In this document: positions 1 through 34,282 of the stretch, one piece after another
Numbering within the stretch: position 1 is the stretch's first letter
How the letters are laid out: the number at the start of each line of letters is the position of its first letter
Assembly: GCF_056712565.1 (NCBI RefSeq)
Contig: NZ_CM160072.1
Length of the DNA stretch: 64,000 bases
Reading direction: 5' to 3' (one strand)
Made by a program: the position numbers and the translations under genes
Notes under the pieces: model-generated
The model's input: only the letters and a program-made list of their open reading frames with translations
Databases searched by the model: none
Told to the model about the DNA's origin: nothing

Positions 1-53
1 ATAAAAAGCATAATTCACCACCGGCATTAGCTATATCTCTTCTGAAACTTGAT

Positions 54-1190
54 GTGTCTGAAAGAAATTACGACTCTTCTGGCAGAAGAATTATCAAACA
101 GACGCGAAATGATGAAAAAGATTTGGGAGGTAAAGTACACCCTGTGTCATCTTCAAGCATCAAACCGGTAGTAGACTACTACATTAATGGAGATAATCTC
201 TATGAACCATTATCAATTCCCCCTTATGGAGTTAGAACTTATAAAGATACTTTTCAACTAATCATCTATAAAGAAGGAATTAGATATAATAAGCCAGCAA
301 TTTATTTTGGTAAAATTCAATCTAATATACGGCTGGAGATAAATTCGAATAGATATTACCTTACTTTTTTAGCCAGAAAGAAAGGTACCAAACAAGCATA
401 TAAACTTGAAATTGATGCTTCAGAATGGGATGAAAGTAAAAAGAGTTTTTTCTGTAGTGAGTATGAAAAACAAAGAGCAGAAGCAAATAAGTATTATAAT
501 GGACTAAAAGACAAGCGCAAAGCAACCAAATATCTTAATATTTTCTTTTTTGGTTTTCCTGATGAGTGCGATAGTTTTTTATTTAAGACTAGTTGTTTTA
601 AATTGATTTATATCGTTTTCTTAGATGATTTTGATGTGACTTATAATGACAAAAACTACAGCATAGAAAAAGAACAGCTAATTAGAGATGAAATTAACAA
701 AGAACATTTGACAGATCATCAAAATAGAATAAACCTTGCTGAGGTTGCTGAGGTTGCTGAGGTTGCTGAGGTTGCTGAGGTTGCTGAGGTTGCTGAGGTT
801 GCTGAGGTTGCTGAGGTTGCTGAGGTTGCTGAGGTTGCTGAGGTTGCTGAGGTTGCTGAGGTTGCTGAGGTTGCTGAGGTTGCTGAGGTTGCTGAGGTTG
901 CTGAGGTTGCTGAGGTTGCTGAGGTTGCTGAGGTTGCTGAGGTTGCTGAGGTTGCTGAGGTTGCTGAGGTTGCTGAGGTTGCTGAGGTTGCTGAGGTTGC
1001 TGAGGTTGCTGAGGTTGCTGAGGTTGCTGAGGTTGCTGAGGTTGCTGAGGTTGCTGAGGTTGCTGAGGTTGCTGAGGTTGCTGAGGTTGCTGAGGTTGCT
1101 GATTTTGACAAGAGCGAATTTAACCCTTCGGATTCTGATAGGAAAATATGGACTGGGATAAGAAAGCTTATTTCATTCTTTAAAAAATAG
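54..1190 (+). CDS. Hypothetical protein with C-terminal (Ala-Glu-Val)n tandem-repeat tract; reading frame is open to window start so the N-terminus may lie upstream
   Basis: 378-aa ORF in AT-rich DNA; about 40 consecutive AEV tripeptides encoded by perfect 9-bp repeat; no stop in frame between position 3 and 54. Confidence 0.45.
   Translation: MSERNYDSSGRRIIKQTRNDEKDLGGKVHPVSSSSIKPVVDYYINGDNLYEPLSIPPYGVRTYKDTFQLIIYKEGIRYNKPAIYFGKIQSNIRLEINSNRYYLTFLARKKGTKQAYKLEIDASEWDESKKSFFCSEYEKQRAEANKYYNGLKDKRKATKYLNIFFFGFPDECDSFLFKTSCFKLIYIVFLDDFDVTYNDKNYSIEKEQLIRDEINKEHLTDHQNRINLAEVAEVAEVAEVAEVAEVAEVAEVAEVAEVAEVAEVAEVAEVAEVAEVAEVAEVAEVAEVAEVAEVAEVAEVAEVAEVAEVAEVAEVAEVAEVAEVAEVAEVAEVAEVAEVAEVAEVAEVADFDKSEFNPSDSDRKIWTGIRKLISFFKK
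737..1100. repeat. Perfect 9-bp tandem repeat (GCTGAGGTT) x about 40, in frame within ORF 54..1190
   Basis: Directly visible in sequence; generates spurious ORFs in other frames (SATSAT.., LRLLRL..). Confidence 0.95.
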
Positions 1191-1321: not shown

Positions 1322-3106
1322 ATGTGGTCAGACAAAGAGTCATCAGAAGACTACCTAAATTTTGGTGAAGTATCTCAGTTAGCCGTGGATGTACTTACCA
1401 CGAAAGATATGTTACCAGTATCTATCGGAATTTTTGGAAACTGGGGGGCAGGTAAATCCTCTCTGTTAAAACTGATAGAGCAAAAACTTGAGCAAGACGA
1501 CAAAGATTGGATTGTTATCAATTTTGACTCTTGGCTCTATCAGGGGTACGACGACACCCGTGCCGCACTTCTTGAAGTCATCGCTACAGAATTGACAAAA
1601 GCTGCTGAAGGTAATTCAGCCCTTATATCAAAAACTAAGAGACTCCTTAGTCGAGTTGATGGTTTTAGAGCTATGGGATTACTAGCTGAGGGTACAGCTT
1701 TAATGGCAGGATTACCTACTGGCGGTTTGCTTTCTAGGGGGATTGGTGCATTAAGAAATATCACCGATGGCATCCAGAGCCAGGAAGAGTATGAGGCTTT
1801 AGGCAATATAGCTAAAGAAGGTAAAGAAACTGCTTGTGGTTTGATTAAACCACAAACAAAAAAAAGCCCCCCTCAGCAGATTGATGCCTTTCGTAAGGAA
1901 TATGGGGAAATTCTAGAAGAACTTGGAAAGCCACTCATTGTGGTAATAGATAACCTAGACCGCTGTCTCCCTGCCAATGCTATCCATACACTTGAAGCTA
2001 TCAGGCTATTCCTTTTCTTGACTAATACAGCCTTTATTATTGCAGCAGATGAGGACATGATTCGCTCTTCTGTGGCTGATTACTTCAAAGGGGCATCACA
2101 GCGCCATCAAATAGATTATCTGGATAAGCTAATCCAGGTTCCTATTCGGGTGCCTAAGGCTGGGGTCCGTGAGATCCGTTCGTATCTGTTCATGCTTTAT
2201 GCCATTGAACATGGCTTAGAAGGCGAAAAAATAACTATGCTCCGTGAGGGCTTAGAGAAGGCGTTACAGCAATCCTGGAAAGATGAACCAATCTCACGTC
2301 AGGAGGCCTTAAAAATGACTGGTGAAGCGGATGATAGCAACCTCGCGCTGGCGTTTGCGCGTGCTGACCGTATTGCTCCCATTTTAGCCAACTCTCCAAT
2401 TATTCATGGTAATCCCAGGATCGTTAAACGCTTGTTGAATGTTGTGAAAATGCGATCTCAAATTGCGAAGCGACGAGCAATGCCTTTGGATGAAGCAATT
2501 ATTACTAAGCTAGTAATTTTTGAACGCTGTGTTGGAGTGGATGGCACCGCTGATTTATATCATCTCGTGGATATTGAACAAGGTGTTCCCCAGATACTTA
2601 AACAGCTTGACGATAATGGCGGTCAAATACCTACTGATGCACCAAAGACATGGACTGATAGTCCAACGACTAAATCTTTCATCAGTCAATGGGCCCAACT
2701 TGAACCTCGTCTTGGTGGGATTGACTTAAGGGCCGCCATATATCTGTCCCGAGAAACTATGCCAATAGGTGCATATGTGGTTGGTTTATCGCCATCTGGA
2801 CGGGAAGTACTAAATGCACTAATTGAATTGAAAAACACTAGTTCTCCTACAGCAGAAAACCTTTTGAAAGCACTTCCTCGTGAGGAGCAAATACCTGTAA
2901 TGGAAGGTTTAATTAACCAGTTACGGCAGGTATCAGATTGGGATCGTAAGCCCAGAGGCTTTTCCGGTGCATGTCTGTTGGCCCGCTACTCAACAGATGC
3001 AGCCAGCATATTAATTCGTTATCTACAGGAATTACAGTTGGGGATGAAACGACCAGCGTGGATGACTGCAGCATTAAAAGATGAACAATGGAATAAGGAC
3101 GCTTAA
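1322..3106 (+). CDS. qatA: KAP-family P-loop NTPase (QatA-like)
   Basis: Walker A GNWGAGKS, FDSWLYQGYDD motif after P-loop, Walker B VVIDNLDRC; 594 aa; first gene of 4-gene overlapping operon. Confidence 0.75.
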   Translation: MWSDKESSEDYLNFGEVSQLAVDVLTTKDMLPVSIGIFGNWGAGKSSLLKLIEQKLEQDDKDWIVINFDSWLYQGYDDTRAALLEVIATELTKAAEGNSALISKTKRLLSRVDGFRAMGLLAEGTALMAGLPTGGLLSRGIGALRNITDGIQSQEEYEALGNIAKEGKETACGLIKPQTKKSPPQQIDAFRKEYGEILEELGKPLIVVIDNLDRCLPANAIHTLEAIRLFLFLTNTAFIIAADEDMIRSSVADYFKGASQRHQIDYLDKLIQVPIRVPKAGVREIRSYLFMLYAIEHGLEGEKITMLREGLEKALQQSWKDEPISRQEALKMTGEADDSNLALAFARADRIAPILANSPIIHGNPRIVKRLLNVVKMRSQIAKRRAMPLDEAIITKLVIFERCVGVDGTADLYHLVDIEQGVPQILKQLDDNGGQIPTDAPKTWTDSPTTKSFISQWAQLEPRLGGIDLRAAIYLSRETMPIGAYVVGLSPSGREVLNALIELKNTSSPTAENLLKALPREEQIPVMEGLINQLRQVSDWDRKPRGFSGACLLARYSTDAASILIRYLQELQLGMKRPAWMTAALKDEQWNKDA

Positions 3107-3858
3107 TGGGAACATCACAATCAAGTAAAGGTCCAGGAGGTGGCTCTCCGCTGGTTCCACCATGGGCTGATGATCAGCCACAGCAACCGTTACCCTCGCC
3201 GCAAGAAAGGAGGTTTGCGCCATTTCGAGAATCGTTGGGAAATGCGGTATCAAATGGAAATCGAGCAGATTTCAGAAAAGCCATAGGGCACTACGCGCGA
3301 AAAGCCTCCGGAGGGAGCAGTAACGCTGCTCGGCGATTAGGGAGTGTCACGCAAGCTGGGGCCGAATTATTTGGGGCTTTAGTGGGAATGCCTTCGGCTC
3401 CCGGAGAACCAAGCATCGATTTGGGCAGTTTGGCAGGCCTTCCATGCGAAATAGCAATATCAACTATTGCTCAAGCTTTAACATCACAGGATGGTGACTC
3501 AGAAAAGATCTGTGCGGCCATGAACCATGCTTTAGTGGAGGCTCTTGATGGCGTAGAAATTTTCGATCCTCAAAAAATAACTGATGGTGTGATTGTTGAC
3601 ACAATGATTGGTTATCTAGCGGAAAGTATTTTCCTTCAGATGGTAATGGATTCTAATAGGGCATGGAACAAAGCAGATACACCTTCAAAGGCAATTCATG
3701 CAGAAATTGAACTCCGGGAATTGATTAAAGTTGTTGTTGATAAACATATGGCACCAAAACTTGCCGGTAACATAAGATCGTTCACACGAAACCAAATGGT
3801 AAAAATTGAACGTCAGGCCATTATTGAGGCCTGGCAAGAATGGGAGGCATACCAGTGA
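3106..3858 (+). CDS. qatB: Protein of unknown function (QatB-like position)
   Basis: 250 aa, Gly/Pro/Ser-rich N-terminus, no recognisable catalytic motif; start overlaps qatA stop, end overlaps next gene. Confidence 0.55.
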   Translation: MGTSQSSKGPGGGSPLVPPWADDQPQQPLPSPQERRFAPFRESLGNAVSNGNRADFRKAIGHYARKASGGSSNAARRLGSVTQAGAELFGALVGMPSAPGEPSIDLGSLAGLPCEIAISTIAQALTSQDGDSEKICAAMNHALVEALDGVEIFDPQKITDGVIVDTMIGYLAESIFLQMVMDSNRAWNKADTPSKAIHAEIELRELIKVVVDKHMAPKLAGNIRSFTRNQMVKIERQAIIEAWQEWEAYQ

Positions 3859-5159
3859 CACAATTAGTTTTCCATCATAAACATCACCATTTGCCGCCAG
3901 CAAGTGAGAAAGTGTTACCTGTTCAGCTATATGGATTAAGTGGTCAGAGGCGCGGAGATATATCTGTTATCGGGAATCCTGCGATTGATCGGATCAGACG
4001 TTTGGGAGTACAGCTTCCAGCTAAGGTCATGGATTTTCTGAGTGTTGCATTAGCAGTAACTGCAGCAGATACTTTCGTTCAGCGTGAAAGTTCCGAGGAT
4101 GGTTGGACCCGCCAATTGTCGTTACGACTCCCCCTTCATGAACCATCCAGATGGATTAGTCTAAAGAAAGAACTTGAGAGTGCTTTGCATTTTCTTAGTG
4201 GAGACATCTGGGATTTCGAATTTTGTGACGATGGTTATGCACCGCCAGAGCCTTATAGCCAGCATTCAAGGCATCGTCTGATTAAGCTAAAAGGGCTTGA
4301 CTGTGTCAGCTTATTTTCAGGAGGTCTGGATTCAGCTATTGGTGCAATAGATCTTCTGGCTGCAGGGCGCGCTCCACTTTTGGTTAGTCATGCTTATAAG
4401 GGGGACAAGTCTCGTCAAGATCAGATCGCTGAAAAATTAAGTGGCCAATTTTCGCGCTTTGAGATTAATGCTGACCCACACATTTATCAAGGCGTGACTG
4501 ATATTACGATGCGAACTCGTAGCCTCAATTTTCTTGCCTTTGCGGCCGTAGGTGCTTGTGCCGTACAAGAGATATCTCAACAAGAAAAGATTGATTTGTT
4601 CGTACCTGAAAATGGATTTATCTCATTAAATGCACCACTTACTCCACGGCGGATAGGTTCGCTGAGCACACGAACAACACATCCACATTTTATTACGAGC
4701 ATACAAAAGATCTTTGATGCGCTCGGTATTTCTTGTCAAATAATCAATCCATATCAGTTTAAGACAAAAGGAAAAATGATCTCCGAATGTTCAAATAAGC
4801 AGCTCTTATCTAAAATTGTGGAAAGTACAGTATCCTGCAGTCATTGGAAACGAATGGGGCAGCAATGTGGGGTATGTATACCGTGTATCATTCGACGAGC
4901 ATCACTTCATGCAGGGGGAATTAGTAGAGATGTTGAATATATTTTCCAGTCCTTAGCTAAAGTAATGAATGAAATAGATCGCAGGGACGACCTGATCGCC
5001 CTTAGGATTGCGATCACGCAGAAATCGACTTTGAAAATAGGTACATGGATTGCCAAAAGTGGCCCTTTGCCTACGGCAGAATTTGATAATTTCAAGCAAG
5101 TATTTAAGGATGGCCTAGATGAGGTTGAAAGCTATTTACTGAGTGAGAACATAGTATGA
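3840..5159 (+). CDS. qatC: QueC-like PP-loop ATPase family protein (QatC-like)
   Basis: PP-loop SGGLDS; C-terminal Cys cluster CSHWKRMGQQCGVCIPC resembling QueC zinc site; about 150 aa extra N-terminal region; 439 aa. Confidence 0.7.
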   Translation: MGGIPVTQLVFHHKHHHLPPASEKVLPVQLYGLSGQRRGDISVIGNPAIDRIRRLGVQLPAKVMDFLSVALAVTAADTFVQRESSEDGWTRQLSLRLPLHEPSRWISLKKELESALHFLSGDIWDFEFCDDGYAPPEPYSQHSRHRLIKLKGLDCVSLFSGGLDSAIGAIDLLAAGRAPLLVSHAYKGDKSRQDQIAEKLSGQFSRFEINADPHIYQGVTDITMRTRSLNFLAFAAVGACAVQEISQQEKIDLFVPENGFISLNAPLTPRRIGSLSTRTTHPHFITSIQKIFDALGISCQIINPYQFKTKGKMISECSNKQLLSKIVESTVSCSHWKRMGQQCGVCIPCIIRRASLHAGGISRDVEYIFQSLAKVMNEIDRRDDLIALRIAITQKSTLKIGTWIAKSGPLPTAEFDNFKQVFKDGLDEVESYLLSENIV

Positions 5160-5881
5160 GCATCGATATGCACTGTCATCTAGACTTATATCCTCGGCCA
5201 GACCTCGTGGCTGAAGAAAGTAAGCGTCGAGGGACTTATATTCTGTCGGTGACAACAACACCTAAAGCATGGCATGGTACTTCTTTATTGGCTAAAGAAA
5301 GTCAACGAATCCGAACTGCTCTTGGGCTACATCCTCAAATCGCGCATCAAAGATCGCATGAGTTAGACCTGTTTGATTCATTGCTTTCGGAAACTAAGTA
5401 TGTAGGGGAAATAGGGCTTGATGGTGGACAGGGATTTAAAGAACATTGGGATATTCAATTGAAAGTGTTCCGACACATTCTCAACAGTGTAAATCGGGCT
5501 GGTGGCAAGATTATGACTATCCATAGTCGGGGAAGTGCATCAGCGGTGCTTGATGAGATTGAAAATATCGATGGGGTGGCAATATTGCATTGGTTCACTG
5601 GAACACCTAAGCAGCTTGAAAGGGCAATTGATTTAGGATGCTGGTTCTCAGTGGGGCCTGCTATGCTCGATACAATAAAGGGTAAGGCCTTAGTTTTGAA
5701 AATACCCAAATCACGCATTCTTACAGAAACAGATGGGCCATTTGCTAAGTTTCGTAATGACCCACTAATGCCATGGGATAGTGGGATTGCAGAGAAACAG
5801 TTAGCCGCATTATGGGGGATTAGTCAGATGGAGGTTAATGCTCAGCTAGTTGATAATTTTAAGGTATTATGTACATCATAA
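5156..5881 (+). CDS. qatD: TatD-family metal-dependent hydrolase/nuclease (QatD-like)
   Basis: N-terminal DMHCHLD (HxH), EIGLD, C-terminal TETDGPF motifs typical of TatD; 241 aa; start overlaps qatC stop. Confidence 0.75.
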   Translation: MSIDMHCHLDLYPRPDLVAEESKRRGTYILSVTTTPKAWHGTSLLAKESQRIRTALGLHPQIAHQRSHELDLFDSLLSETKYVGEIGLDGGQGFKEHWDIQLKVFRHILNSVNRAGGKIMTIHSRGSASAVLDEIENIDGVAILHWFTGTPKQLERAIDLGCWFSVGPAMLDTIKGKALVLKIPKSRILTETDGPFAKFRNDPLMPWDSGIAEKQLAALWGISQMEVNAQLVDNFKVLCTS

Positions 5882-6433
5882 GAATGAAAAACTTAGATAT
5901 GCATTTACAGTTCAATTCATTTTTCGTCATCAGTTAATTACACATAAAATTAAAAGTAAGAATATATCTACCCTGTGAATGAGTAAGGCGGATTTATATA
6001 GTTTGTAATTAGTTTAAATGTAAGCAGTTCGTCAGAGTGCGTATTCCGCTCTATTCGATCACGGATTGGCCGTTATGACCCGATCTCGATGGAAGTTATT
6101 GGGTGATCCCCTTCCATGAAAATATGCACCGAAGCTCCCGCAGAGGTTTCCGTGGGCGAAGGCATGATTCTGTCCGAGAGCCGGATGTGTTAGAAGCGCA
6201 TGTCCGCTTCGATGAGCGGGGTGTGGAAACAGGATTTATGGTCAGGACAGTAAGGCACCGCCAATCGAAAGAGGCGGCAACAGATATGCCTGACCTGTAA
6301 AATTACCGCGCCACATCTTGACTCTACCCGTTTTCCAAGCGCCCCCCCTTATAGAACGTACACTGGATGGTGATACCGGCTATACATCGCATATTTGACA
6401 GTCAGCTTGCTGAATTTTTCATTGGCTGCAGCA

Positions 6434-7009
6434 TCAGGGCGTTTTCCAGATGACAGCTATAGTAAAAATGATCGCCAGACTGGCGAGAAAGCAGAGCGAA
6501 AGCGGGATTTTGTCCTTCAGTGTCAGGTTCAGCTCTTCTTCAACCCATGCTTTTTCAAATTCACAGTAAAATTTATAATGTGCGTACCAGTTACTTCCGA
6601 AGATCTGTTTGCTGATGACCGTGCCGTAAAACCGGGACATGATAGCGTCGATGGATTGTTGTGTACGCTGATAGTCAAAGTTTGCATCGCTTTTTACGTT
6701 GCGGTAGATGACTTCAAGTTCATTAAAAATTTTGGTCTGCTCAATCCCCGCACTTTCATAACTCTGCTTTTCCGAGTCATAAAACTGAATGTACATTGTA
6801 GCAACACCAAATATAATTAATATCGCGGAAATGACGTTTGTGGCCAGCTCAGGAATAAAAAGGGCGAACACACCGACAGCAAGAGAAATAAAGCTAATCC
6901 AACCGGATGCCTTACAAATCAGATCATAGGTGGCAAAGTTTTTCTTAGCGCCAAATCCAACGTTATAACCATGTCGGGCGATTAATTTCAGCATCTCTGA
7001 TTGCGTCAT
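6434..7009 (-). CDS. Small membrane protein, SLATT-like putative effector partnered with nucleotidyltransferase
   Basis: 191 aa; two central hydrophobic helices (WISFISLAVGVFALFIPELATNVISAILIIFGVATMYIQ) plus C-terminal hydrophobic segment; 7-nt gap after upstream gene. Confidence 0.5.
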   Translation of the reverse strand: MTQSEMLKLIARHGYNVGFGAKKNFATYDLICKASGWISFISLAVGVFALFIPELATNVISAILIIFGVATMYIQFYDSEKQSYESAGIEQTKIFNELEVIYRNVKSDANFDYQRTQQSIDAIMSRFYGTVISKQIFGSNWYAHYKFYCEFEKAWVEEELNLTLKDKIPLSLCFLASLAIIFTIAVIWKTP

Positions 7010-7016
7010 AAAAACC

Positions 7017-8345
7017 TCAGCTTATGGGAACTTCAATCTGGGCCCGGGCAACCACAACCTCATTTTTTATCACATAGCATTCTACCATGTGATCTCCGCG
7101 GAAGTCGGTAGTTTCTTTCTTCGTACAGTAGCCGCCGTCCGAAACGATTTGTCCCCGGATCATATTTCTTCTGCGTGCTTCGTCACCCACGTTCAGTACC
7201 TTCCACATAACGGTGTAGGGTTCCTCTGCCTCCATTTCTGTCAAGTCTGCCCGGAAAAGGAGAGATTTTCGAGCGGAGAGGCGGAATCTTCTGATAAGCA
7301 TCTCCCTCAGGCTTCTGGGAGGGAAACCATCCTGGGTTACGGTACAGTCAAGGTTGAGTGAGTACCTGATATCCACCGGATATTTATCCTCTATAAACTC
7401 TTCGGTATCGGTCCAGGGAACAGCATCTGCCGCATGCGATTCCAGACCAAGACGGGCTTCCATAATACCCACTTTACGTCTGGGGAAGGCTCGTCCGAAC
7501 ACTTTGCGCCAGCGGTCATTTTCACTGGCAGCCCCCTCAGCGTCTAAGGCATCACAACATAATTCATACGCGTGTTTCGCTGCCCGGCCAAACCAGGGAG
7601 ATTTAACACGTACATGCTGATTACTGCCTAACGCGAGATACCTTTCCTTTCTCTCCTCATTTGACAGATATTCAAAAAAGTCTCTGGCGAGGGCTCCCAG
7701 GCTGCCATTTCCGGTATTGTCATAATCTGATGTTGATGAAAGAAAGCGATACGCTAGTGTGTCTATCAGTAAGCCACCCATATTGACGCCATGCAGGTTC
7801 TTCCAGGCTCTGATCATTTTACACAGCTTGCGCAGATTATTGGATTTATCTCGCGAAAATGCGGTCATGGCCGCCTTTTCGTGAAGAGGTTTTGTAATGC
7901 GCCATGCTCCTCCATTATAGCTTTCAGGGAATTTAAAGCTGTCATCATCCTGTCTGAATACAGGTTGAACCTCGACATAAAAGTTTTTAAAGATGATCTG
8001 AACAACCAGTCTGTCCTTTTTCACAGTCTGGTCAGGATATTCTTCCGCCAGAATGTTTCTGACATCTGTAAGCAATGCAGACTGACCATTATCCTTACGG
8101 TTATAATATTCATACTGATTGGGGGGCATAATATAAAGCATATCCAGATCGGATATGCCTTTTATTGCGGTATGTCTGCCTACTGACCCCACTTTCAAGC
8201 GGTTTGCTACCCGGGAACTCGTTCCTCTGAACGCAAGATTTAATGACTTGGTTATTTTTCGATAGTGATAGCTGATCTTTTTTGCCTGTTTGAGGTCAAG
8301 ATTCAAATTTTCAAGAAATTCGCTGAACAATTCCCTGTGGCTCAT
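7017..8345 (-). CDS. SMODS/CD-NTase-like nucleotidyltransferase with about 120-aa C-terminal extension
   Basis: Pol-beta-type NTase signature GSVGRHTAIKGISDLD (GS-x10-[S]DhD) and downstream acidic strand YVEVQP; 442 aa. Confidence 0.55.
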   Translation of the reverse strand: MSHRELFSEFLENLNLDLKQAKKISYHYRKITKSLNLAFRGTSSRVANRLKVGSVGRHTAIKGISDLDMLYIMPPNQYEYYNRKDNGQSALLTDVRNILAEEYPDQTVKKDRLVVQIIFKNFYVEVQPVFRQDDDSFKFPESYNGGAWRITKPLHEKAAMTAFSRDKSNNLRKLCKMIRAWKNLHGVNMGGLLIDTLAYRFLSSTSDYDNTGNGSLGALARDFFEYLSNEERKERYLALGSNQHVRVKSPWFGRAAKHAYELCCDALDAEGAASENDRWRKVFGRAFPRRKVGIMEARLGLESHAADAVPWTDTEEFIEDKYPVDIRYSLNLDCTVTQDGFPPRSLREMLIRRFRLSARKSLLFRADLTEMEAEEPYTVMWKVLNVGDEARRRNMIRGQIVSDGGYCTKKETTDFRGDHMVECYVIKNEVVVARAQIEVPIS

Positions 8346-11822: not shown

Positions 11823-13292
11823 ATGCATATCGATTCGACTGAAAAAAATAATAAACAAAAGTTGGGCTTGCTTGCGCTAACATCCATTGTCGTGAGCTCG
11901 ATGATCGGCAGCGGCGTTGACGGACTCCCCCAGAATATGGCGGAGAATTCTGCCGTGGGCCCGGTGGCGATAGCATGGATAGTCTGTGGTATCGGCATGT
12001 TTTTCATCTCCAGAACTTTTATCGTGCTGTCAAACATTAGACCTGATCTCCAGTCAGGAGTTTATATGTATGCCCGGGAAGGGTTCGGCCGATTTACGGC
12101 ATTTAACGTCGCCTGGGGCTACTGGCTGATGACTATATTCAGCAACGTCGCCTTTGCCATTATGGTGATGGATACGCTGAATTATTTCTTACCAGGTGAT
12201 TTCAAGGGAGGGAACAATATTCCTTCCGTTATCGGTGCCTCTTTGCTGATATGGGGATTCAACTTTTTAGTCCTCTCCGGTACCCGCATTGCCGGGTCGA
12301 TTAACATCGTCGGCACGCTGGCCAAACTGATCCCGCTGGTGGCCTTTATTATTATTCTCATGCTGTTTATGAAGTACACCACGTTCGCAGATAACGTCTG
12401 GGGGCACAGCGCGAGTAAGGCCAGTCAGGACCTAGGCTCTATTTTCTCACAGGTAACTTCACCGCTTAGCGTGGCACTCTGGAGCTTCATCGGCGTTGAG
12501 GGGGCTGTCGCTCTTTCCGGTCGGGCCAAAAATAAACGCGACGTGGGTAAAGCCACATTCATTGGCTTCGTTGTATCACTGATTATCTGTCTGCTGGTCT
12601 CCATCCTGCCGTTTGGCGTGCTGACTCAACATGAGCTCAGCGCAATTCCAACCCCATCCACCGCCGGTATTCTGAAGATTGTTGTCGGTGAATGGGGGAA
12701 GATTATGATTATCTTGGGGGTGCTGATTTCGGTGCTTACCAGCTGGCTGGCGTGGACCATCATCTGCGCCGAACTGCCTATGGTGGCCGCGCAGAACGGC
12801 ACATTCCCGAAACCGTTCAGCAAAAAAAATGTGAAGGGTTCGGCCTCGGTTTCGCTTTATATAAGCAGTGCGTTTATGCAAATCGTCGTACTTCTGGTCT
12901 ACTTTTCTAACGATGCCTGGCTTGCAATGCTGGCTATCTCTACCCTGACCGTTTTACCTGCGTATTTAATGACCACGGCATACCTGTTTAAACTATGTAT
13001 TAGCGGCGAGTATGCCAGCTATACCACGAATCACAGCCGCAGCGCCGCGCTGGTCAGCAGTATTATCGGCTTTGTATTCTGCCTGTTTATGTTCTACGCC
13101 AGTGAAATCAAATATCTGGCGATGGTTCCGGTGCTGCTTACGCTGGGCGTGCCCCTGTTTATCTGGGCAAGAAAAAAAGACGATCGCGCAGATAAAATAT
13201 TTACGCTACGCGAACTGGCATTTTTTATTTTACTGCTGGTCCTCGACATCATTGTTTTTATTCTACTGCATTATAAAACGATACATTTTTAG
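11823..13292 (+). CDS. APC-superfamily basic amino acid antiporter, ArcD/YdgI-like (paralog 1)
   Basis: 489 aa polytopic; N-terminal KLGLLALTSIVVSSMIGSGV..LPQNMA and GVYMYAREGFG, FIGVEGAV..SGRAKNKRDVGKAT motifs as in arginine:ornithine-type antiporters. Confidence 0.7.
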   Translation: MHIDSTEKNNKQKLGLLALTSIVVSSMIGSGVDGLPQNMAENSAVGPVAIAWIVCGIGMFFISRTFIVLSNIRPDLQSGVYMYAREGFGRFTAFNVAWGYWLMTIFSNVAFAIMVMDTLNYFLPGDFKGGNNIPSVIGASLLIWGFNFLVLSGTRIAGSINIVGTLAKLIPLVAFIIILMLFMKYTTFADNVWGHSASKASQDLGSIFSQVTSPLSVALWSFIGVEGAVALSGRAKNKRDVGKATFIGFVVSLIICLLVSILPFGVLTQHELSAIPTPSTAGILKIVVGEWGKIMIILGVLISVLTSWLAWTIICAELPMVAAQNGTFPKPFSKKNVKGSASVSLYISSAFMQIVVLLVYFSNDAWLAMLAISTLTVLPAYLMTTAYLFKLCISGEYASYTTNHSRSAALVSSIIGFVFCLFMFYASEIKYLAMVPVLLTLGVPLFIWARKKDDRADKIFTLRELAFFILLLVLDIIVFILLHYKTIHF

Positions 13293-13396
13293 TCCAGATT
13301 AATTCACAGCAAGTTAAGGTGACGATAATGTCTGTTTCTTGGGCATGACATCCTCACAGTTAAATACTATCTGAACAGTAACCGTGGAGACACCTA

Positions 13397-15766
13397 ATGA
13401 AATTTAACCACAATCTTTTATTTATTTCCTCACAATATCTTGATGGCGACAACCCTTCGCAGCAGGTACTGGAAGAGCTTCAAACCGAACTCGCGGAACG
13501 CGGTTTTAAAATTCATATCACGCACCAGATCTCTGATGGATTAAAAATCATCGAAAAAAGCCCCCAATACAGCGGGATTGGTTTTTACTGGGAGCCAGAC
13601 AATCCGACCTTTGCAGAAGAGCTACAGCACTTTATCAGCATATTCCGCAAAAGAAATGCCACGACGCCGCTGATAATTTTCTCAGAACAGAATATTACCG
13701 ATCGTATCCCACTCGACGTCTTAAAAGAGGTCAGCGAATATGTTTATCTGTTCTCTGAATCCGCAGCCTTCACTGCCAATCGACTGTACTCCTTAGTCCA
13801 CCGCTATGCGGATAAGCTTCTTCCTCCCTACTTTAAAACCCTTAAGGACTTTACCGAGGACGGTGACTATTACTGGGACTGCCCGGGGCATATGGGGGGA
13901 ATGGCCTATCTGAAACATCCTGTTGGCATTGAGTTCATTAACTTCTTTGGCGAAAACATGATGCGCGCTGATATTGGCGTGGCTACCGCGGAGATGGGGG
14001 ATTATCTGATCCACGCCGGACCGCCTAAAAAATCGGAAGAAATTGCGGCCCGACTGTTTGGCTCTGATTGGACCTTCTACGGTGTTTCCGGCTCATCGGG
14101 GTCGAACCGTATTGTGGCCCAGGCTGCGGTTGGCGCAGATGAAATTGCCATTATTGACCGAAATTGCCACAAGTCACTTAATCATGGCCTGACCTTGTCT
14201 CAGGCAAGGCCGGTTTACCTGAAACCTACCCGCAACGCGTGGGGGCTGATTGGGCCTATCCCGACCGGGCGCCTGAAGAAGGCCAGTATTGATGCGCTGG
14301 TGGCAAACAGCCGACTGGCATCTGGTGCGGTCAGCCAGTCCCCGTCCTACGCCGTGGTAACCAACTGCACCTATGATGGCTTCTGTTATAACGTGAACGA
14401 TGTAGTCAGACACCTGGGTGAAAGCGCACCGCGCATCCATTTTGATGAAGCATGGTATGCCTATGCGCGTTTCCATCCGCTATACCAGAGTCGCTATGCA
14501 ATGGACGCGGAGGAAACGCCAAATCGTCCAACCCTATTCGCCGTACAGTCCACCCATAAAATGCTGCCCTCACTCTCCATGGCCTCAATGATTCATGTGA
14601 AGAAAAGCGATCGCGCGCCGCTTAATTTCGATGACTTTAACGATGCCTTTATGATGCACGGCACGACCTCACCCTACTACCCGATCATTGCATCAATTGA
14701 TGTGGCAGTAAGCATGATGGAGGGTGAATCCGGTTATTCGCTTGTGCAGGAGTCAATTGAAGAAGCGATTGCCTTCCGTAAAGCCGTGGTCAGCGTCAAG
14801 CGCCAGCTCCAGGAGCAGGAAGGTGGTGACGCCTGGTTCTTCGATGTGCTTCAGCCAACCGAAGTGCAGGACAGCGATTCTGGGCAGCGATACAGTTTTG
14901 AAGAGGCACCCGTATCGCTGCTGAGCCACAGCGCCGACTGCTGGTCGCTGCGCTCCGGTGAGCGCTGGCACGGTTTTGCCGATGATGATCTGGTCGAAAC
15001 CAACAGTATGCTCGATCCAGTAAAAGTGACCCTGACTTGTCCAGGGATCGGCCCGAAGGGAGAATACCAGAAAAACGGTATTCCGGGATATTTGCTGACC
15101 CGTTTTCTCGATGACCGTCGCATTGAAATTGCCCGTACTGGTGACTACACCGTGCTGATCCTGTTCTCCGTCGGCATCACCAAAGGCAAATGGGGAACTC
15201 TGATTGAAAGCCTGCTGGCCTTTAAAAAGCATTACGACAATGACGATCTGGCCACAGATGCTATCCCGTCGCTGAAAGCGCATTCTCCACACTACGACAC
15301 GCTAACCCTCAAGGAGCTATGTCAGATAATGCATGAAAAAATGGATGAGCTGGAGCTGATGTCGCATATCAACGACGCGGTAAACACCGATCCGGAACCA
15401 GTTATGACCCCGGCAGAAGCCTATCAGAAAGTCGTACGCTACAAAACCGAGCATATCCGGCTGGATGATTTTAGCGGCAGAATTGCCGCCAGCATGCTCG
15501 TCCCATATCCCCCAGGCATTCCTGTACTGATGCCGGGCGAACGGATGCCGCAAGGTAACAAGGGCATTATTGGCTATCTGCGCGCCCTGCAGGAATTCGA
15601 TAAGCAATTCCCAGGTTTTGAACATGAGATCCAGGGCGTTAACGTCGATGAAAACGGGGACTTCTGGGTCAGAGCGATTGTGGAAGAAGAACGCGATGGG
15701 CAGTCGCTACCCGGCCACATAACCTTTAAACGCCAGGTCTCTGGTATTAAAAAGGGCCGCCAGTAG
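13397..15766 (+). CDS. PLP-dependent Orn/Lys/Arg decarboxylase, AdiA-like (biodegradative arginine decarboxylase family)
   Basis: 789 aa; DRNCHKS, VTNCTYDGFCYN, HFDEAWYAYARF, QSTHKMLP (PLP lysine), GKWGTLIESLLAFKKHYD closely parallel recalled AdiA motifs, less so CadA/SpeF. Confidence 0.8.
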   Translation: MKFNHNLLFISSQYLDGDNPSQQVLEELQTELAERGFKIHITHQISDGLKIIEKSPQYSGIGFYWEPDNPTFAEELQHFISIFRKRNATTPLIIFSEQNITDRIPLDVLKEVSEYVYLFSESAAFTANRLYSLVHRYADKLLPPYFKTLKDFTEDGDYYWDCPGHMGGMAYLKHPVGIEFINFFGENMMRADIGVATAEMGDYLIHAGPPKKSEEIAARLFGSDWTFYGVSGSSGSNRIVAQAAVGADEIAIIDRNCHKSLNHGLTLSQARPVYLKPTRNAWGLIGPIPTGRLKKASIDALVANSRLASGAVSQSPSYAVVTNCTYDGFCYNVNDVVRHLGESAPRIHFDEAWYAYARFHPLYQSRYAMDAEETPNRPTLFAVQSTHKMLPSLSMASMIHVKKSDRAPLNFDDFNDAFMMHGTTSPYYPIIASIDVAVSMMEGESGYSLVQESIEEAIAFRKAVVSVKRQLQEQEGGDAWFFDVLQPTEVQDSDSGQRYSFEEAPVSLLSHSADCWSLRSGERWHGFADDDLVETNSMLDPVKVTLTCPGIGPKGEYQKNGIPGYLLTRFLDDRRIEIARTGDYTVLILFSVGITKGKWGTLIESLLAFKKHYDNDDLATDAIPSLKAHSPHYDTLTLKELCQIMHEKMDELELMSHINDAVNTDPEPVMTPAEAYQKVVRYKTEHIRLDDFSGRIAASMLVPYPPGIPVLMPGERMPQGNKGIIGYLRALQEFDKQFPGFEHEIQGVNVDENGDFWVRAIVEEERDGQSLPGHITFKRQVSGIKKGRQ

Positions 15767-15840
15767 GCGGGGGAAAGAACAATACCGTCGGATCGCCTGC
15801 AATCCGACGGCAATATTATAGAATAGCTGAGGGAAACGTT

Positions 15841-17340
15841 ATGGCAGAGCAATCTTCAGATGTAAAAAATAGTGACAATAGCGCCGGAGGACATAAGCTG
15901 GGGCTTATATCCCTCATCGCTATTGTCGTTAGCTCCATGCTGGGAGGCGGCGTTTTCAGTCTGCCGCAAAACACGGCGGCCTCTTCTGCACTAGGGCCAG
16001 TAATCATTGCATGGATTATTGCCGGGATCGGTATTTATTTTATCGCAAACTCCTTTCGCGTACTATCAGATCTGCGCCCGGACCTTCAGGCTGGAGTGTA
16101 TATGTATGCCCAGGAAGGTTTTGGTTCCTTTATTGGCTTTAACGTCGCCTGGGGCTACTGGCTGATGACCGCATTTGGCAACGTTGCCTTTGCGGTAATT
16201 TTAATGGATGCTTTTAATCAGTTTATGCCGGGGGTTTTTACGGATGGTAATAATCTGAACTCCATTATCTGCGGCTCAGTGCTGATCTGGGGCTATAATT
16301 TTCTTGTTCTGTCCGGGACGAAAGTGGCCGGATTTGTTAACACCTTGGGAACCATCGCCAAGCTCGTCCCTCTGATCCTATTCGTATTACTGCTGGGTGT
16401 GCTGATCGATTATTCGGACCTGTTTAAAAACTTTTGGGGAGAATCACCCGCGATCCTCAGTGGCAACGGAAATGACGCCGCACCAGTATCGCTGCTGTCT
16501 CAGATTCTGGCACCGATGACCGTAACGCTCTGGGCCTTTATTGGCGTCGAGGGAGCGGTTGTTCTATCCGGACGTGCCAAAAATAAACAGGACGTAGGGA
16601 AAGCCACACTGATCGGCTTTCTGCTGGCGCTAATTATTTATATGTTAATGTCCATTCTGCCGTTCGGTGTAATGCCTCAGGCAGAACTAGCGCAGGTCAG
16701 TAACCCCTCTACCGCAGGCGTGCTCGCCCACGTTGTCGGTCAGTGGGGCGACTGGCTGATGAGCGCGGGGCTGATTATTTCTGTTCTGGCCGGCTGGCTT
16801 GCCTGGACCATGCTATGCGCTGAAATACCGATGGTCGCAGGACAGAAAGGCGCTTTCCCGCGCGCGTTTGCCCGAACGAACAGTAAACAGGCGGCCAATG
16901 TGTCACTGTGGGTTAGTAGCTTTGTGATGCAGGCGGCCATGTTACTTGTTTATTTTTCAAATAATGCTTGGACCACCATGTATAATATCAGTGCGCTGAT
17001 GGTTGTTCCGGCCTATATTACCACCACGCTGTATCTGACCAGTATTTGCAGAAACGGAAAATATGATCAGTATGCAAAAAAAGGCCGCAGGCTGGCTTTG
17101 TCCAGCGGTGTTTTAGGCTCGCTATTCTGTCTGTTTATTCTTTACGCCAGCCAGATTGAGTATGTTGCATTAATTCCTATCCTGTTGACCTGTGGTCTGC
17201 CGGTCTTTATCTGGTCAAGAAAAGAAAAAAATGATGGTCAGCCGATATTTACCAAAAAAGAGCTGATTTATCTGATTATGCTGTTGCTGTGCGATATTAT
17301 CGTCGTTGCCCTGTTTATTGGTGGATATTTAAAGGTATAA
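15841..17340 (+). CDS. APC-superfamily basic amino acid antiporter, ArcD/YdgI-like (paralog 2)
   Basis: 499 aa; same motif set as 11823..13292 (KLGLISLIAIVVSSMLGGGVFSLPQN..). Confidence 0.7.
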   Translation: MAEQSSDVKNSDNSAGGHKLGLISLIAIVVSSMLGGGVFSLPQNTAASSALGPVIIAWIIAGIGIYFIANSFRVLSDLRPDLQAGVYMYAQEGFGSFIGFNVAWGYWLMTAFGNVAFAVILMDAFNQFMPGVFTDGNNLNSIICGSVLIWGYNFLVLSGTKVAGFVNTLGTIAKLVPLILFVLLLGVLIDYSDLFKNFWGESPAILSGNGNDAAPVSLLSQILAPMTVTLWAFIGVEGAVVLSGRAKNKQDVGKATLIGFLLALIIYMLMSILPFGVMPQAELAQVSNPSTAGVLAHVVGQWGDWLMSAGLIISVLAGWLAWTMLCAEIPMVAGQKGAFPRAFARTNSKQAANVSLWVSSFVMQAAMLLVYFSNNAWTTMYNISALMVVPAYITTTLYLTSICRNGKYDQYAKKGRRLALSSGVLGSLFCLFILYASQIEYVALIPILLTCGLPVFIWSRKEKNDGQPIFTKKELIYLIMLLLCDIIVVALFIGGYLKV

Positions 17341-22698: not shown

Positions 22699-23964
22699 TC
22701 ACCTTTTCAGTGGATTGTTAACTTTTGCATATTCAAACGGACTGATACACTCCTCCCTGTTTGCATCCAGAAAATCTGCCCACCATTGCAGCATAAGCCG
22801 ACGTTCTTCCAGATGTTCTGCTTTATGAATATACGCGGCACGTACTCCGTTGCGCTCCTGATGACTCATCTGACGTTCAACCGCATCTCTTGACCATAAG
22901 CCGGATTCAATCAATGCACTGCACGCCATCGCCCGGAATCCATGGCCACAGACTTCCTTGGTTGTGTCATACCCCATCACTCTGAGGGCCTTATTTACGG
23001 TATTTTCACTGATTGGTTTACGTGGGTCGTGTGCTCCCGTAAAGATCAGACCATTTTCACCTGCCCATGTCTGAAGTTCTGCCAGTATGGCTACAGCCTG
23101 TTGGCTGAGTGGCACAAGATGTGGTGTTCGCATCTTGGAGCCCCGGTATGAAAATTTTACGCCTGGCAGAGGTTCGCGTTCGGCTGGAATAGTCCACATG
23201 GCATTGTCAATATCAATTTCAGACCAGCGGGCATATCTGAGTTCACTGGAACGAATAAAAACCAGTAAATTCAGCATAACTGCCAGTCGGGTGACAGGCT
23301 GGCCTTTATAACCGTCAATACGCGACAGAAGTTCAGGCAGGCGTGAAAGATCCAGAGCAGGGCGATGCTGGCGTTTTACCGTGGTCAATGCACCAGCCAT
23401 ATCCAGAGCCGGGTTATATCTGATGATGCCAGACTGTACGGCATAACGCATTACAGCAGATATTCTTTGCTGCAGACGACTGGCGATTTCATAAATTTGT
23501 TTAACTTCTGCAGCACGAACAGGGATAAGCAGATCCGGGGTACTGAGTGTTGTGATATCCCGGTTGCCGATAAAGGGGAAAACGTGAGTCTCGAGGCTTT
23601 TGAGTACTTTATCGCTGTGTGATTGTGCCCATTGTTTATTACTGGCATGCCAGCGTCGTGCAATATGTTCAAAAGAGAGCTGTAAATCAGGGACTACTTT
23701 TTTAGCTCTTTTCTGTTCGCAAGGGTCAACCCCCTCCGAAATCAGTTTTCGGGCCTCATCCCGTTTTGTACGAGCTTCGGAGAGAGAAACTTCCGGATAC
23801 ACACCAAGTGCCAGGGTTTTCTCCTTACCCAGAATACGATAACGGAGACGCCAGTAACGGGAACCATTAGGATGTACCAGCAGGAACATGCCAGCCCCGT
23901 CAGTGAGTTTATAAGCCTTGTCAGTGGGCTTTGCAGCCCGGATTTTTGCGTCAGTCAGTGCCAT
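22699..23964 (-). CDS. int: P4-type (CP4-like) tyrosine integrase
   Basis: 421 aa; N-terminal MALTDAKIRAAKP..KAYKLTDGAGMFLLVHPNGSRYWRLRYR typical of P4-family integrases; C-terminal HGFRAMACSALIESG and R..Y region; adjacent to tRNA 3' end. Confidence 0.85.
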   Translation of the reverse strand: MALTDAKIRAAKPTDKAYKLTDGAGMFLLVHPNGSRYWRLRYRILGKEKTLALGVYPEVSLSEARTKRDEARKLISEGVDPCEQKRAKKVVPDLQLSFEHIARRWHASNKQWAQSHSDKVLKSLETHVFPFIGNRDITTLSTPDLLIPVRAAEVKQIYEIASRLQQRISAVMRYAVQSGIIRYNPALDMAGALTTVKRQHRPALDLSRLPELLSRIDGYKGQPVTRLAVMLNLLVFIRSSELRYARWSEIDIDNAMWTIPAEREPLPGVKFSYRGSKMRTPHLVPLSQQAVAILAELQTWAGENGLIFTGAHDPRKPISENTVNKALRVMGYDTTKEVCGHGFRAMACSALIESGLWSRDAVERQMSHQERNGVRAAYIHKAEHLEERRLMLQWWADFLDANREECISPFEYAKVNNPLKR

Positions 23965-24160: not shown

Positions 24161-24161
24161 T

Positions 24162-32623: not shown

Positions 32624-34282
<1,659 letters not shown>

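What the first reader, a model, noticed from the sequence alone, without database searches (positions are those of the whole stretch)
1..1190. Coding microsatellite: about 40 perfect in-frame copies of a 9-bp unit giving a (Ala-Glu-Val)n tract in a low-GC ORF
The repeat GCTGAGGTT is iterated about 40 times without a single substitution (737-1100) inside a 378+ aa ORF whose N-terminal 230 residues are Lys/Tyr/Asn-rich with no recognisable domain. Perfect copies imply recent expansion or ongoing slipped-strand or recombinational length variation. Because the unit is 9 bp, copy-number changes alter tract length without breaking the frame, as in contingency-type variable proteins. The reading frame is open to the window edge, so the true start and any upstream partners are not visible.
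Basis: seen in the sequence. Interest (0 to 1): 0.6.

Follow-up and report, generated by a model that had tools for sequence, protein, structure and literature searches.

The report
Hypervariable repeat linker, defence-island protein
A perfect 9-base repeat in an uncharacterised E. coli gene encodes a flexible acidic spacer whose length differs hugely between near-identical strains, the same trick used by a sister gene whose repeat has long served as an O157 typing marker, but what the protein does is still unknown.

Summary
There are 40.8 perfect copies of a 9-bp unit at 736-1102, read in frame as (AEV)40, in a low-GC gene that starts 247 nt upstream of the window edge (478 aa in full).

The tract is hypervariable. 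About 5 to 60 copies occur among E. coli complete genomes, always pure. Strains with 0 SNPs in about 9 kb of flanks carry 4.8, 5.8, 7.8 or 45.8 copies.

It is not an ON/OFF contingency switch, because the frame never breaks. The tract is the linker of a three-part protein:
- an N-terminal domain of about 300 aa with an invariant C-C-H-C cluster and a confident predicted fold, homologous to Avs8B (PD-lambda-4 gene B, function unknown), with weak OB-fold resemblance;
- a low-complexity acidic spacer;
- a C-terminal basic amphipathic helix resembling the FtsA membrane-targeting sequence.

Relatives carry independent perfect microsatellites at the same spot. Vibrio pVA1 plasmids have (AEV)3-29. 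Yersinia and E. coli O157:H7 have (PE)n, and the O157 tract is the MLVA marker TR2.

The gene lies beside QatABCD and CBASS in a pheV island. Relatives sit beside many other defence systems or in plasmid transfer regions.

Verdict: a new member of a known kind (coding VNTR), in an undescribed protein architecture. Function is inferred, not shown.

The parts
1..735 (+). Part of the N-terminal folded domain (residues 83-327 of the 478-aa protein) of an Avs8B-superfamily protein. The first 82 residues, including the invariant Cys33/Cys38/His63/Cys67 cluster, lie upstream of the window.
   Evidence: Open frame to the window edge. Full CDS in CFT073 at L001:8754-10046. Homologues in many Enterobacterales and Vibrio. 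Remote homologues are full-length PD-Lambda-4_B matches, E 1e-33 to 1e-92. AF2 model has pLDDT 86 and pTM 0.83. Invariant C-C-H-C.
736..1102 (+). Perfect 9-bp microsatellite, 40.8 copies (TTGCTGAGG in TRF register, GCTGAGGTT in codon register). It is translated as (AEV)40 at 738-1097, followed by Ala at 1098-1100. It forms the acidic low-complexity linker of the protein and is hypervariable between strains.
   Evidence: TRF. 4.8-59.8 copies among E. coli genomes. Identical flanks with different copy numbers. The tract is predicted as low-confidence coil.
1101..1187 (+). C-terminal tail DFDKSEFNPSDSDRKIWTGIRKLISFFKK. Its last 16 residues (1140-1187) are a predicted basic amphipathic helix, inferred to be a membrane-targeting sequence.
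   Evidence: Best 11-mer hydrophobic moment is 0.86 with net charge +4. The E. coli FtsA membrane-targeting sequence gives 0.78 and +4, and the maximum in the protein's own N-domain is 0.75. Analogous basic/aromatic amphipathic tails end the long forms across the family despite no sequence identity. Modelled as a helix at residues 367-378 of the short allele, at low confidence.
1188..1190 (+). Stop codon of the gene. It is followed by a 131-nt spacer before qatA (1322), with no terminator-like or promoter-like consensus on the + strand.

Best explanation
The repeat is an in-frame coding VNTR. It forms the variable-length acidic spacer of a three-part cytoplasmic protein.

Part 1 is a folded N-terminal domain of about 300 aa. 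It has a probable zinc-binding C-x4-C...H-x3-C module and a beta-rich body that weakly resembles OB-fold nucleic-acid binders. It is homologous to Avs8B, the function-unknown second gene of the PD-lambda-4/Avs8 defence operon.

Part 2 is the (AEV)n tract, a flexible acidic tether.

Part 3 is a C-terminal basic amphipathic helix. This most likely pins the protein to the inner face of the cytoplasmic membrane, as in FtsA and MinD.

Replication slippage within the perfectly homogeneous array adds and removes whole 9-bp units much faster than point mutations accumulate. That keeps the array pure and makes its length differ between near-clonal strains. Because the unit is three codons, the protein stays intact and only the tether length changes (15 to 180 residues).

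The gene is cargo of mobile and defence islands. It is not a dedicated Qat component.

Shown: the array, its hypervariability, the homology, the architecture, and the recurrence of microsatellites at this position in other lineages. Inferred: zinc binding, nucleic-acid binding, membrane tethering, slippage as the mechanism, and tolerance rather than tuning of linker length.
For: Array and frame.

Hypervariability with purity. Identical flanks with 40.8/42.8/45.8/53.8 copies and with 4.8/5.8/7.8/45.8 copies.

Family architecture of domain, low-complexity linker and amphipathic tail, holding in homologues down to 25% identity from what look like diverse phyla.

Independent perfect microsatellites at the same position:
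- Vibrio pVPGX1, (AEV)26.2, unit GCTGAAGTT, N-domain only about 31% identical; 3.2-29.2 copies among pVA1-type plasmids.
- Yersinia pseudotuberculosis plasmid, (PE)20.8.
- E. coli O157:H7, (PE)40.7. Both published MLVA TR2 primers match exactly on either side of this tract. TR2 had the highest diversity index, 92.2%, in PMC2246123.

Avs8B homology. Invariant C33/C38/H63/C67.

Confident fold and disordered linker. OB-fold-only resemblance.

Not Qat-specific. QatBC alone defends (PMC13279940).
Against: No experiment or expression data bear on this protein.

Membrane targeting rests on a hydrophobic-moment calculation and analogy. The terminal helix is modelled at low pLDDT.

Avs8B was reported dispensable for Avs8 defence and inactive alone, so even the homologue gives no function.

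The same AEV peptide recurs in E. coli and Vibrio proteins that are only 31% identical. This hints that the tract's sequence, not just its presence, may be under selection, which a pure 'neutral spacer' view does not explain.

Copy numbers come from assemblies, and some short alleles could be collapsed repeats.
Confidence: 0.6

Rival explanations
1. Adaptive contingency locus: linker length is a tuning knob. Slippage generates within-population diversity in how far the N-domain reaches from the membrane, or how strongly the acidic tract auto-inhibits it. Selection, for example by phages or incoming DNA, then picks among lengths.
For: There is extreme length diversity with perfect purity. Perfect microsatellites evolved at the same position repeatedly, with different units (9-bp AEV, 6-bp PE), in at least four lineages. 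The AEV peptide is conserved between E. coli and Vibrio proteins despite 31% domain identity, and the units differ only by a synonymous base. The gene sits in defence islands, where diversifying selection is common.
Against: No phenotype is linked to length. Many family members have ordinary non-repetitive linkers of very different lengths, which argues for tolerance. Acidic low-complexity DNA is intrinsically prone to microsatellite birth. The frame never changes, so there is no switch.
Confidence: 0.2
2. The gene is a fifth, regulatory or sensory component of this E. coli QatABCD locus, co-transcribed with qatA.
For: It lies on the same strand, 131 nt upstream of qatA, with no terminator-like site between them. 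In E. coli the two occur in essentially the same genomes, 252 against 251. Its homologue Avs8B is likewise paired with an NTPase-based defence gene.
Against: Homologues occur without Qat in Xenorhabdus, Providencia, Enterobacter, Yersinia, Vibrio and O157:H7. E. coli 88_1577 keeps the gene at the same site, but it is followed by other cargo. PADLOC defines Qat with four genes. QatBC alone from P. aeruginosa and E. coli protects against lambda-vir (PMC13279940). The E. coli co-occurrence is explained by one vertically inherited pheV island.
Confidence: 0.1
3. It is a mobile-element establishment or transfer protein. It would be a membrane-tethered DNA-binding factor acting on DNA entering or leaving the cell during conjugation, for example in leading-region protection or anti-defence. 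The E. coli copy would be a relic of an integrated element.
For: In Yersinia it sits between the relaxase gene and traD/pilV. In Vibrio pVA1-type plasmids it lies inside the transfer gene cluster, after the TraF peptidase and a lytic transglycosylase. In O157:H7 and Enterobacter cloacae it follows a pair of tyrosine recombinases. There is weak OB-fold resemblance.
Against: Other members sit next to chromosomal defence systems with no transfer genes nearby. There were no hits in phage genomes. The position relative to oriT was not determined.
Confidence: 0.15
4. It is a non-functional remnant, or the length variation is an assembly artefact.
For: One allele (EC200461) has small indels inside the array that split the CDS. 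The Yersinia pseudotuberculosis plasmid copy and the pVA1 strain 3HP copy are disrupted. Repeats longer than short reads are hard to assemble, and many database entries are 'partial', ending at the tract.
Against: The ORF is intact and annotated in nearly all of about 250 complete genomes. The N-domain is conserved to 25% identity, with four invariant metal-ligand-type residues and a confident fold. The differences are exact multiples of 9. PCR-based MLVA has shown real polymorphism of the homologous O157 tract since 2003.
Confidence: 0.05

Closest known systems
E. coli O157:H7 MLVA locus TR2 (unit TGGCTC; scheme cited in PMC2246123)
   Same: It lies in a paralogous gene, with the N-domain 57% identical. 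It sits at the same position, between the folded domain and the ...W..LKKI.TFFKK tail. It is a perfect in-frame microsatellite with extreme copy-number diversity.
   Different: The unit is 6 bp and encodes (Pro-Glu)n rather than a 9-bp (Ala-Glu-Val)n. It lies in a different genomic element, a tyrosine-recombinase island next to a prophage. It is known only as a typing marker, and I found no link to the protein family in the literature searched.
Avs8B / PD-lambda-4 gene B (PADLOC PDLC03992)
   Same: It has a homologous N-terminal domain. Remote homologues retrieved with this protein match the profile end to end, and the protein itself matches the profile's C-terminal part at E 3.8e-6. It is encoded next to a defence NTPase.
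   Different: Avs8B-type proteins are about 300 aa and lack the linker and the amphipathic tail. The neighbour here is QatA (KAP NTPase), not the Avs8A STAND-Mrr protein. Avs8B itself has no known function and was dispensable.
FtsA / MinD C-terminal amphipathic membrane-targeting sequences
   Same: It is a short C-terminal basic amphipathic helix separated from the folded body by a flexible linker. The hydrophobic moment and charge are comparable to the FtsA sequence.
   Different: There is no sequence homology and the body is unrelated. Membrane binding has not been tested here.
Repeat spacers in bacterial proteins: TonB (Glu-Pro)n/(Lys-Pro)n, staphylococcal Clf/Sdr Ser-Asp repeats (from my own knowledge, not looked up here)
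   Same: They are low-complexity, charged di- or tri-peptide repeats acting as spacers. They are encoded by short tandem DNA repeats that vary in number between strains without breaking the frame.
   Different: Those proteins span the periplasm or cell wall. This one has no signal peptide and is predicted to be cytoplasmic, with the spacer between a membrane-binding helix and a cytosolic domain.
Classical contingency loci (phase-variable simple sequence repeats of Haemophilus and Neisseria; from my own knowledge, not looked up here)
   Same: It is a hypermutable simple sequence repeat inside a gene of the accessory genome.
   Different: The unit length is a multiple of three, so there is no ON/OFF switching and only the protein length changes.

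Membership tests
In-frame coding VNTR (MLVA-type tandem repeat) | Head-to-tail copies of a short unit inside an ORF, with unit length a multiple of 3 | tested here: met
   40.8 perfect copies of 9 bp inside the + strand ORF.
In-frame coding VNTR (MLVA-type tandem repeat) | Copy number polymorphic among strains of the species | tested here: met
   42 lengths in 75 genomes, 4.8-59.8 copies. 0-SNP flanks with different copy numbers.
Avs8B / PD-Lambda-4_B protein superfamily | Significant match to the PADLOC PDLC03992 profile | tested here: inconclusive
   The direct match is partial: E 3.8e-6, residues 209-288 against profile positions 222-296 of 303. The link is transitive. Ten proteins found by phmmer with this domain (E 1e-5 to 1e-11) match the profile full length at E 1e-33 to 1e-92. 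Homology of the domain is well supported, but the protein belongs to a divergent, longer subfamily.
PD-lambda-4 / Avs8 defence system | Encoded in an operon with Avs8A (Mrr nuclease + STAND NTPase) | tested here: not met
   The downstream gene is QatA, a KAP NTPase. No Avs8A-like gene is present in the locus.
QatABCD defence system | One of the four defining proteins, or a partner conserved with them across taxa | tested here: not met
   It matches no Qat profile. Homologues occur without Qat in at least six other genera and in other E. coli. QatBC is sufficient for defence.
Contingency (phase-variable) locus | Repeat changes switch expression on or off, by frameshift or promoter spacing | tested here: not met
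   The unit is 9 bp, and 74 of 75 alleles differ by multiples of 9 and keep the ORF. The array is internal to the CDS.
Contingency (phase-variable) locus | Hypermutable simple sequence repeat | tested here: met
Contingency (phase-variable) locus | Variants differ in a selectable phenotype | not testable with these tools
   This needs isogenic alleles and phenotype assays.
Amphipathic-helix membrane-targeting sequence (FtsA/MinD type) | C-terminal helix of about 10-16 residues with high hydrophobic moment and net positive charge | tested here: met
   Hydrophobic moment 0.86 and charge +4, against 0.78 and +4 for FtsA. This feature recurs in 19 family tails. A helix is predicted at the C-terminus at low confidence.
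Amphipathic-helix membrane-targeting sequence (FtsA/MinD type) | Demonstrated membrane binding | not testable with these tools
   This needs localisation or liposome assays.
OB-fold nucleic-acid-binding proteins | Five-stranded closed beta-barrel superposable on known OB folds with significant scores | tested here: inconclusive
Trypanosome procyclin (Pfam Trypan_PARP), the name some database entries give to relatives | Homology beyond the EP low-complexity tract | tested here: not met
   Only 1 of 41 members hits PF05887, and that hit comes through its (PE)n tract. The names in AFDB are annotation artefacts.

The most novel reading that the evidence does not exclude
The Avs8B-like domain is a membrane-proximal sensor or modulator that accompanies many unrelated defence systems and conjugative elements. 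In its long forms, the microsatellite linker would be a selected 'evolvable ruler'. Slippage would continuously generate subpopulations whose sensor domain reaches different distances from the membrane, or is auto-inhibited to different degrees by the acidic tract. This would be a length-based, non-ON/OFF form of contingency variation in bacterial immunity or DNA-entry surveillance. The recurrence of the same AEV peptide in E. coli and Vibrio would then reflect selection on the tract itself.
Probability: 0.15. Interest if true: 0.75.

Novelty: new member of a known kind. Interest (0 to 1): 0.42.

Why it matters
There are three practical points.

First, this 9-bp tract is a ready-made, very high-resolution typing marker for ExPEC/B2-type E. 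coli that carry the pheV island. It is equivalent to the O157 marker TR2.

Second, it explains why the gene is truncated ('partial') in hundreds of draft assemblies.

Third, it links three previously unconnected observations to one protein family with a definable architecture: the O157 TR2 VNTR, a variable repeat on the shrimp-pathogen pVA1 plasmids, and the orphan Avs8B gene of a phage-defence operon. That gives a concrete, testable handle on a function-unknown gene that keeps turning up beside defence systems.

If linker length proved to matter, it would be an unusual mode of rapid variation in a defence-associated protein.

Tried and rejected
Pfam, NCBIfam and PHROGs scans of the repeat-trimmed protein gave nothing usable.

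A profile search of the family against PDB sequences gave 0 hits. tblastn against phage genomes gave no match.

I recalled a published '9-bp SSR' genotyping marker on pVA1 (Han et al. 2015). I could not find or verify it in the held library. The one paper retrieved used '9-bp' for IS target duplications. The Vibrio tract's polymorphism therefore rests on my own measurement.

No paper in the library contains the peptide AEVAEVAEV or the 9-bp unit as a VNTR. A first literature search on hexamer rotations alone was swamped by unrelated hits. Adding 'O157' found TR2.

I considered and rejected membership in the Qat system and in the Avs8 system (see the membership tests). I also rejected the database names 'procyclic acidic repetitive protein' and 'Ribonucleases G and E' for relatives, as low-complexity artefacts.

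One AFDB relative is labelled as WYL-domain-containing (rank 35). I did not pursue a BrxR/CapW-like regulator reading because no HTH or WYL match was found by Pfam.

Two context look-ups (P0023, P0035) landed on contigs too short to be informative.
Full report
**1. The observation**

Tandem Repeats Finder finds one outstanding array in the window. It lies at 736-1102, with period 9, 40.8 copies, 100% matches and no indels.

In the sequence the long + strand frame has codons at 3, 6, 9 and so on. It reads Leu (735-737), then GCT GAG GTT forty times (738-1097), then Ala. A 29-residue tail DFDKSEFNPSDSDRKIWTGIRKLISFFKK follows, and the stop codon is at 1188-1190. The other two phases of the array give only short ORFs.

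The frame is open to the first base of the window. In E. coli CFT073 the same gene is annotated as starting 247 nt further upstream, at a GTG preceded by AAGGAG. The protein in the window strain is therefore 478 aa, as in the equal-length allele of strain Eco_23-2678.

The non-repeat part is 30.7% GC. The window as a whole is 49.8% GC. The description is confirmed in every respect.

**2. The array is hypervariable**

The 1.3-kb region occurs in 252 of 5,426 complete E. coli genomes. In 75 records covering the full query, the matched span ranges from 996 to 1,491 bp. That gives 42 different lengths, equivalent to 4.8 to 59.8 copies. 74 of the 75 differ from the query by an exact multiple of 9.

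I fetched eleven alleles and read their arrays. Ten are 100% pure at every length from 4.8 to 59.8 copies. One (EC200461) has small indels inside the array that split the CDS, and this may be an assembly error.

Flanking sequence barely differs. The window, SF-468, 268.2 and E10 have no SNP in 3.6 kb of flanks, yet they carry 40.8, 45.8, 53.8 and 42.8 copies. Four strains with zero SNPs in 8.7-9.0 kb of flanks carry 4.8, 5.8, 7.8 and 45.8 copies.

The array therefore turns over far faster than point substitution. This is what replication slippage in a homogeneous array is expected to give (established knowledge; the mechanism was not tested here).

There is a caveat. The numbers come from assemblies, and a few short alleles could be collapsed repeats.

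**3. What the gene is**

The repeat-trimmed protein hits nothing in Pfam, NCBIfam or PHROGs. It gives a weak partial match to PADLOC's PD-Lambda-4_B profile (E 3.8e-6).

Homologues at 53-82% identity exist in Klebsiella, Citrobacter, Serratia, Xenorhabdus, Providencia, Pectobacterium, Yersinia and Enterobacter. Homologues at about 31-34% identity exist in Vibrio. Many are annotated 'partial' and end exactly where the tract begins. In two cases I confirmed that the gene runs off a contig end. Short-read assemblies evidently break at this repeat.

An exhaustive search of 1.8 billion representative proteins gave 69 hits. Ten of the remote hits of about 300 aa are end-to-end matches to PD-Lambda-4_B, at E 1e-33 to 1e-92. 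The N-terminal domain is thus homologous to Avs8B, the second gene of the PD-lambda-4/Avs8 operon.

[quoted passage not shown] It was dispensable for defence and inactive on its own (bioRxiv 10.1101/2025.07.02.662641).

Alignments of 41-55 members show four invariant residues: Cys33, Cys38, His63 and Cys67. This is the signature of a small zinc-binding module (inference).

**4. The tract is a linker**

The longer family members (350-550 aa) come from what look like diverse phyla, judging by their sequences. They share one plan:
- the folded domain of about 300 aa;
- 50-200 residues of acidic, proline- or serine-rich low-complexity sequence;
- a C-terminal end in a short basic, aromatic-rich segment, for example ...KKRSWIRRLFW, ...SIFSKILNFFRK, ...MRKIISWLRKFIRK.

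For the E. coli tail the best 11-residue hydrophobic moment is 0.86 with net charge +4. The membrane-targeting helix of E. coli FtsA gives 0.78 and +4. The maximum anywhere in the protein's own folded domain is 0.75. Nineteen family tails give 0.54-0.93.

A full-length model of a short allele keeps the domain confident. It models the AEV tract and the following residues as coil with pLDDT below 50. It places a helix on the last 12 residues, at low confidence.

There is no N-terminal signal peptide in the sequence.

The simplest reading is a cytoplasmic domain tethered to the inner face of the membrane through a flexible acidic spacer. The microsatellite is that spacer. Membrane binding is inferred, not shown.

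**5. The same position carries independent microsatellites in other lineages**

(a) Vibrio pVA1-type AHPND plasmids. The homologue in pVPGX1 has an N-domain only about 31% identical, yet it carries (AEV)26.2. Its unit is GCTGAAGTT, one synonymous base different from the E. coli unit. Its tail is ...KVKTFMRKIGNFIFK. Among 17 plasmids the tract ranges from 3.2 to 29.2 copies, and 15 of 17 are in steps of 9.

(b) A Yersinia pseudotuberculosis plasmid carries (PE)20.8, as a perfect GCCAGA array. Xenorhabdus and other Yersinia copies have short (PE)n tracts.

(c) A second E. coli lineage is 57% identical and present in 314 genomes, listed mainly as O157:H7 with O55:H7 and O121 also among them. It carries (PE)40.7 in strain SS52.

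The published O157 MLVA locus TR2 has unit TGGCTC, which is the reverse complement of a rotation of GCCAGA. It had the highest Simpson diversity (92.2%) of seven loci in PMC2246123. Both TR2 primers match exactly on either side of this tract. The hypervariability of this family's linker has therefore been exploited for typing for two decades. I found nothing in the searched literature that connects it to the protein.

**6. Genomic context**

In the window the gene is followed by these features:
- QatABCD at 1322-5881, with full-length PADLOC matches;
- a type I CBASS on the minus strand, with the cyclase at 7017-8345 and a 2TM/SLATT effector at 6434-7009;
- IS elements;
- an amino-acid decarboxylase/antiporter cluster;
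- an integrase;
- tRNA-Phe at 24162-24237, next to yqgA, which identifies it as pheV.

The gene therefore lies at the far end of a pheV island whose first 8 kb is a defence island.

No terminator-like or promoter-like consensus lies in the 131 nt before qatA. In E. coli the two genes occur in the same genomes, 252 against 251.

The association is not general, however:
- E. coli 88_1577 has the gene at the same site, followed by different cargo: a Bro-N protein, then a DEAD/DEAH helicase and a methyltransferase.
- The Providencia copy is near a type I R-M system.
- A member matching Avs8B best lies beside Hachiman (HamA plus helicase).
- A tailed metagenomic member follows a GASH/DO-GTPase/GAP1 conflict system.
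- The Xenorhabdus copy is isolated.
- The O157 and Enterobacter copies follow paired tyrosine recombinases.
- The Yersinia and Vibrio copies lie among relaxase and transfer genes.

Published work shows that QatB plus QatC alone protect against lambda-vir (PMC13279940).

The gene is thus recurrent cargo of defence and mobile islands. It is not a Qat component.

**7. Mechanism and rivals**

The best-supported account is a length-tolerant acidic tether. It is kept perfectly homogeneous and hypervariable by slippage, in a membrane-tethered, probably metal-binding and possibly nucleic-acid-binding accessory protein of mobile and defence islands.

The main rival is that length is functionally tuned, a non-ON/OFF contingency mechanism. 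Two observations favour it. Perfect repeats were invented repeatedly at this one position. The AEV peptide is conserved between E. coli and Vibrio proteins that have otherwise diverged to 31% identity.

Two observations count against it. Many relatives have non-repetitive linkers of very different lengths. No phenotype is available.

A Qat-accessory role, a role in conjugative DNA entry or exit, and a pseudogene or artefact reading are less likely, for the reasons given in the rival entries.

**8. Novelty and verdict**

In-frame coding VNTRs are well known, and the sister locus is the classic O157 marker TR2. The finding as stated is therefore a new member of a known kind.

As far as the tools and the searched literature show, three things appear to be new:
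- recognising that TR2, the pVA1 repeat and this ExPEC repeat are the same structural element of one protein family;
- recognising that this family is homologous to the orphan defence-operon gene Avs8B;
- recognising that the element is a linker ahead of a probable membrane-targeting helix.

Interest is moderate. It is a tidy explanation with practical typing value and a testable lead into a function-unknown, defence-associated family. There is no evidence yet that the variation does anything.

Noticed in passing
window 1322-5881 (+): A complete QatABCD anti-phage system lies immediately downstream: qatA 1322-3106, qatB 3106-3858, qatC 3840-5159, qatD 5156-5881. All four are full-length PADLOC matches.
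   Followed up: partly
window 6434-8345 (-): A type I CBASS pair: an oligonucleotide cyclase (7017-8345, PADLOC E 1.8e-176) and a 2TM/SLATT effector (6434-7009, E 2.7e-82). It converges on Qat, so the first 8 kb of the window is a defence island.
   Followed up: partly
window 22700-24237: tRNA-Phe (24162-24237, minus strand) lies next to yqgA, which identifies it as pheV. A tyrosine integrase sits just inside it. GC rises from about 0.39-0.48 to about 0.52 beyond it. The repeat gene therefore sits at the distal end of a roughly 24-kb (or larger) pheV genomic island full of IS1/IS3 fragments.
   Followed up: partly
window 11823-17340 (+): A cluster of two basic amino acid/polyamine antiporters flanking an Orn/Lys/Arg decarboxylase, bracketed by IS1 copies inside the island (annotation taken from the identical region of strain SF-468).
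   Followed up: no
window 53671-53969 (+): Three tandem tRNA-Gly(GCC) genes, which TRF reports as a 111-bp repeat of 2.7 copies. This is an ordinary tRNA gene array (from memory it resembles glyVXY; not checked).
   Followed up: no
window 34241-34276 and 41829-41864: Two short, imperfect tandem repeats (9 bp x4 and 18 bp x2, 88% matches). They have low scores and are probably insignificant.
   Followed up: no
L021 (E. coli O157:H7 SS52) 6001-7359: The O157:H7 paralogue carries (PE)40.7, and it is the MLVA typing locus TR2 (primers at 6716 and 7397). It is followed by a convergent BamE-domain gene, as is the Xenorhabdus homologue (L002). This is a possible conserved neighbour in the (PE)n clade.
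   Followed up: partly
L018 (E. coli EC200461) about 4736-5110: This is the only allele with indels inside the array (units TTGCTTGAG and GTTGAGGTT). They split the gene into two annotated CDSs. It is either a sequencing error or a real inactivation.
   Followed up: no
L008 (Y. pseudotuberculosis pYPSE1-1) 6001-7233; L007 (pVA1 strain 3HP) 5001-5916: Two disrupted copies of the family gene. The Yersinia plasmid copy is split into two ORFs and left unannotated. The pVA1 3HP copy is cut by an ISVa2 insertion just before the repeat.
   Followed up: no
L001 7695-8515 and L010 1486-6561 (upstream of the gene in E. coli): Fragments of type VI secretion genes (VasL, a POTRA-domain protein, the small sheath subunit, ImpA N-terminal domain) and a DUF4222 gene lie between the gene and the grp propanediol microcompartment operon. 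They look like remnants of a decayed T6SS cluster at this island border.
   Followed up: no
protein clusters P0001 (907 members) and P0006 (1019 members): Hundreds of database entries for this gene and its O157 paralogue are 'partial' proteins that end exactly at the start of the repeat. This is a systematic truncation caused by short-read assemblies breaking in the array.
   Followed up: partly
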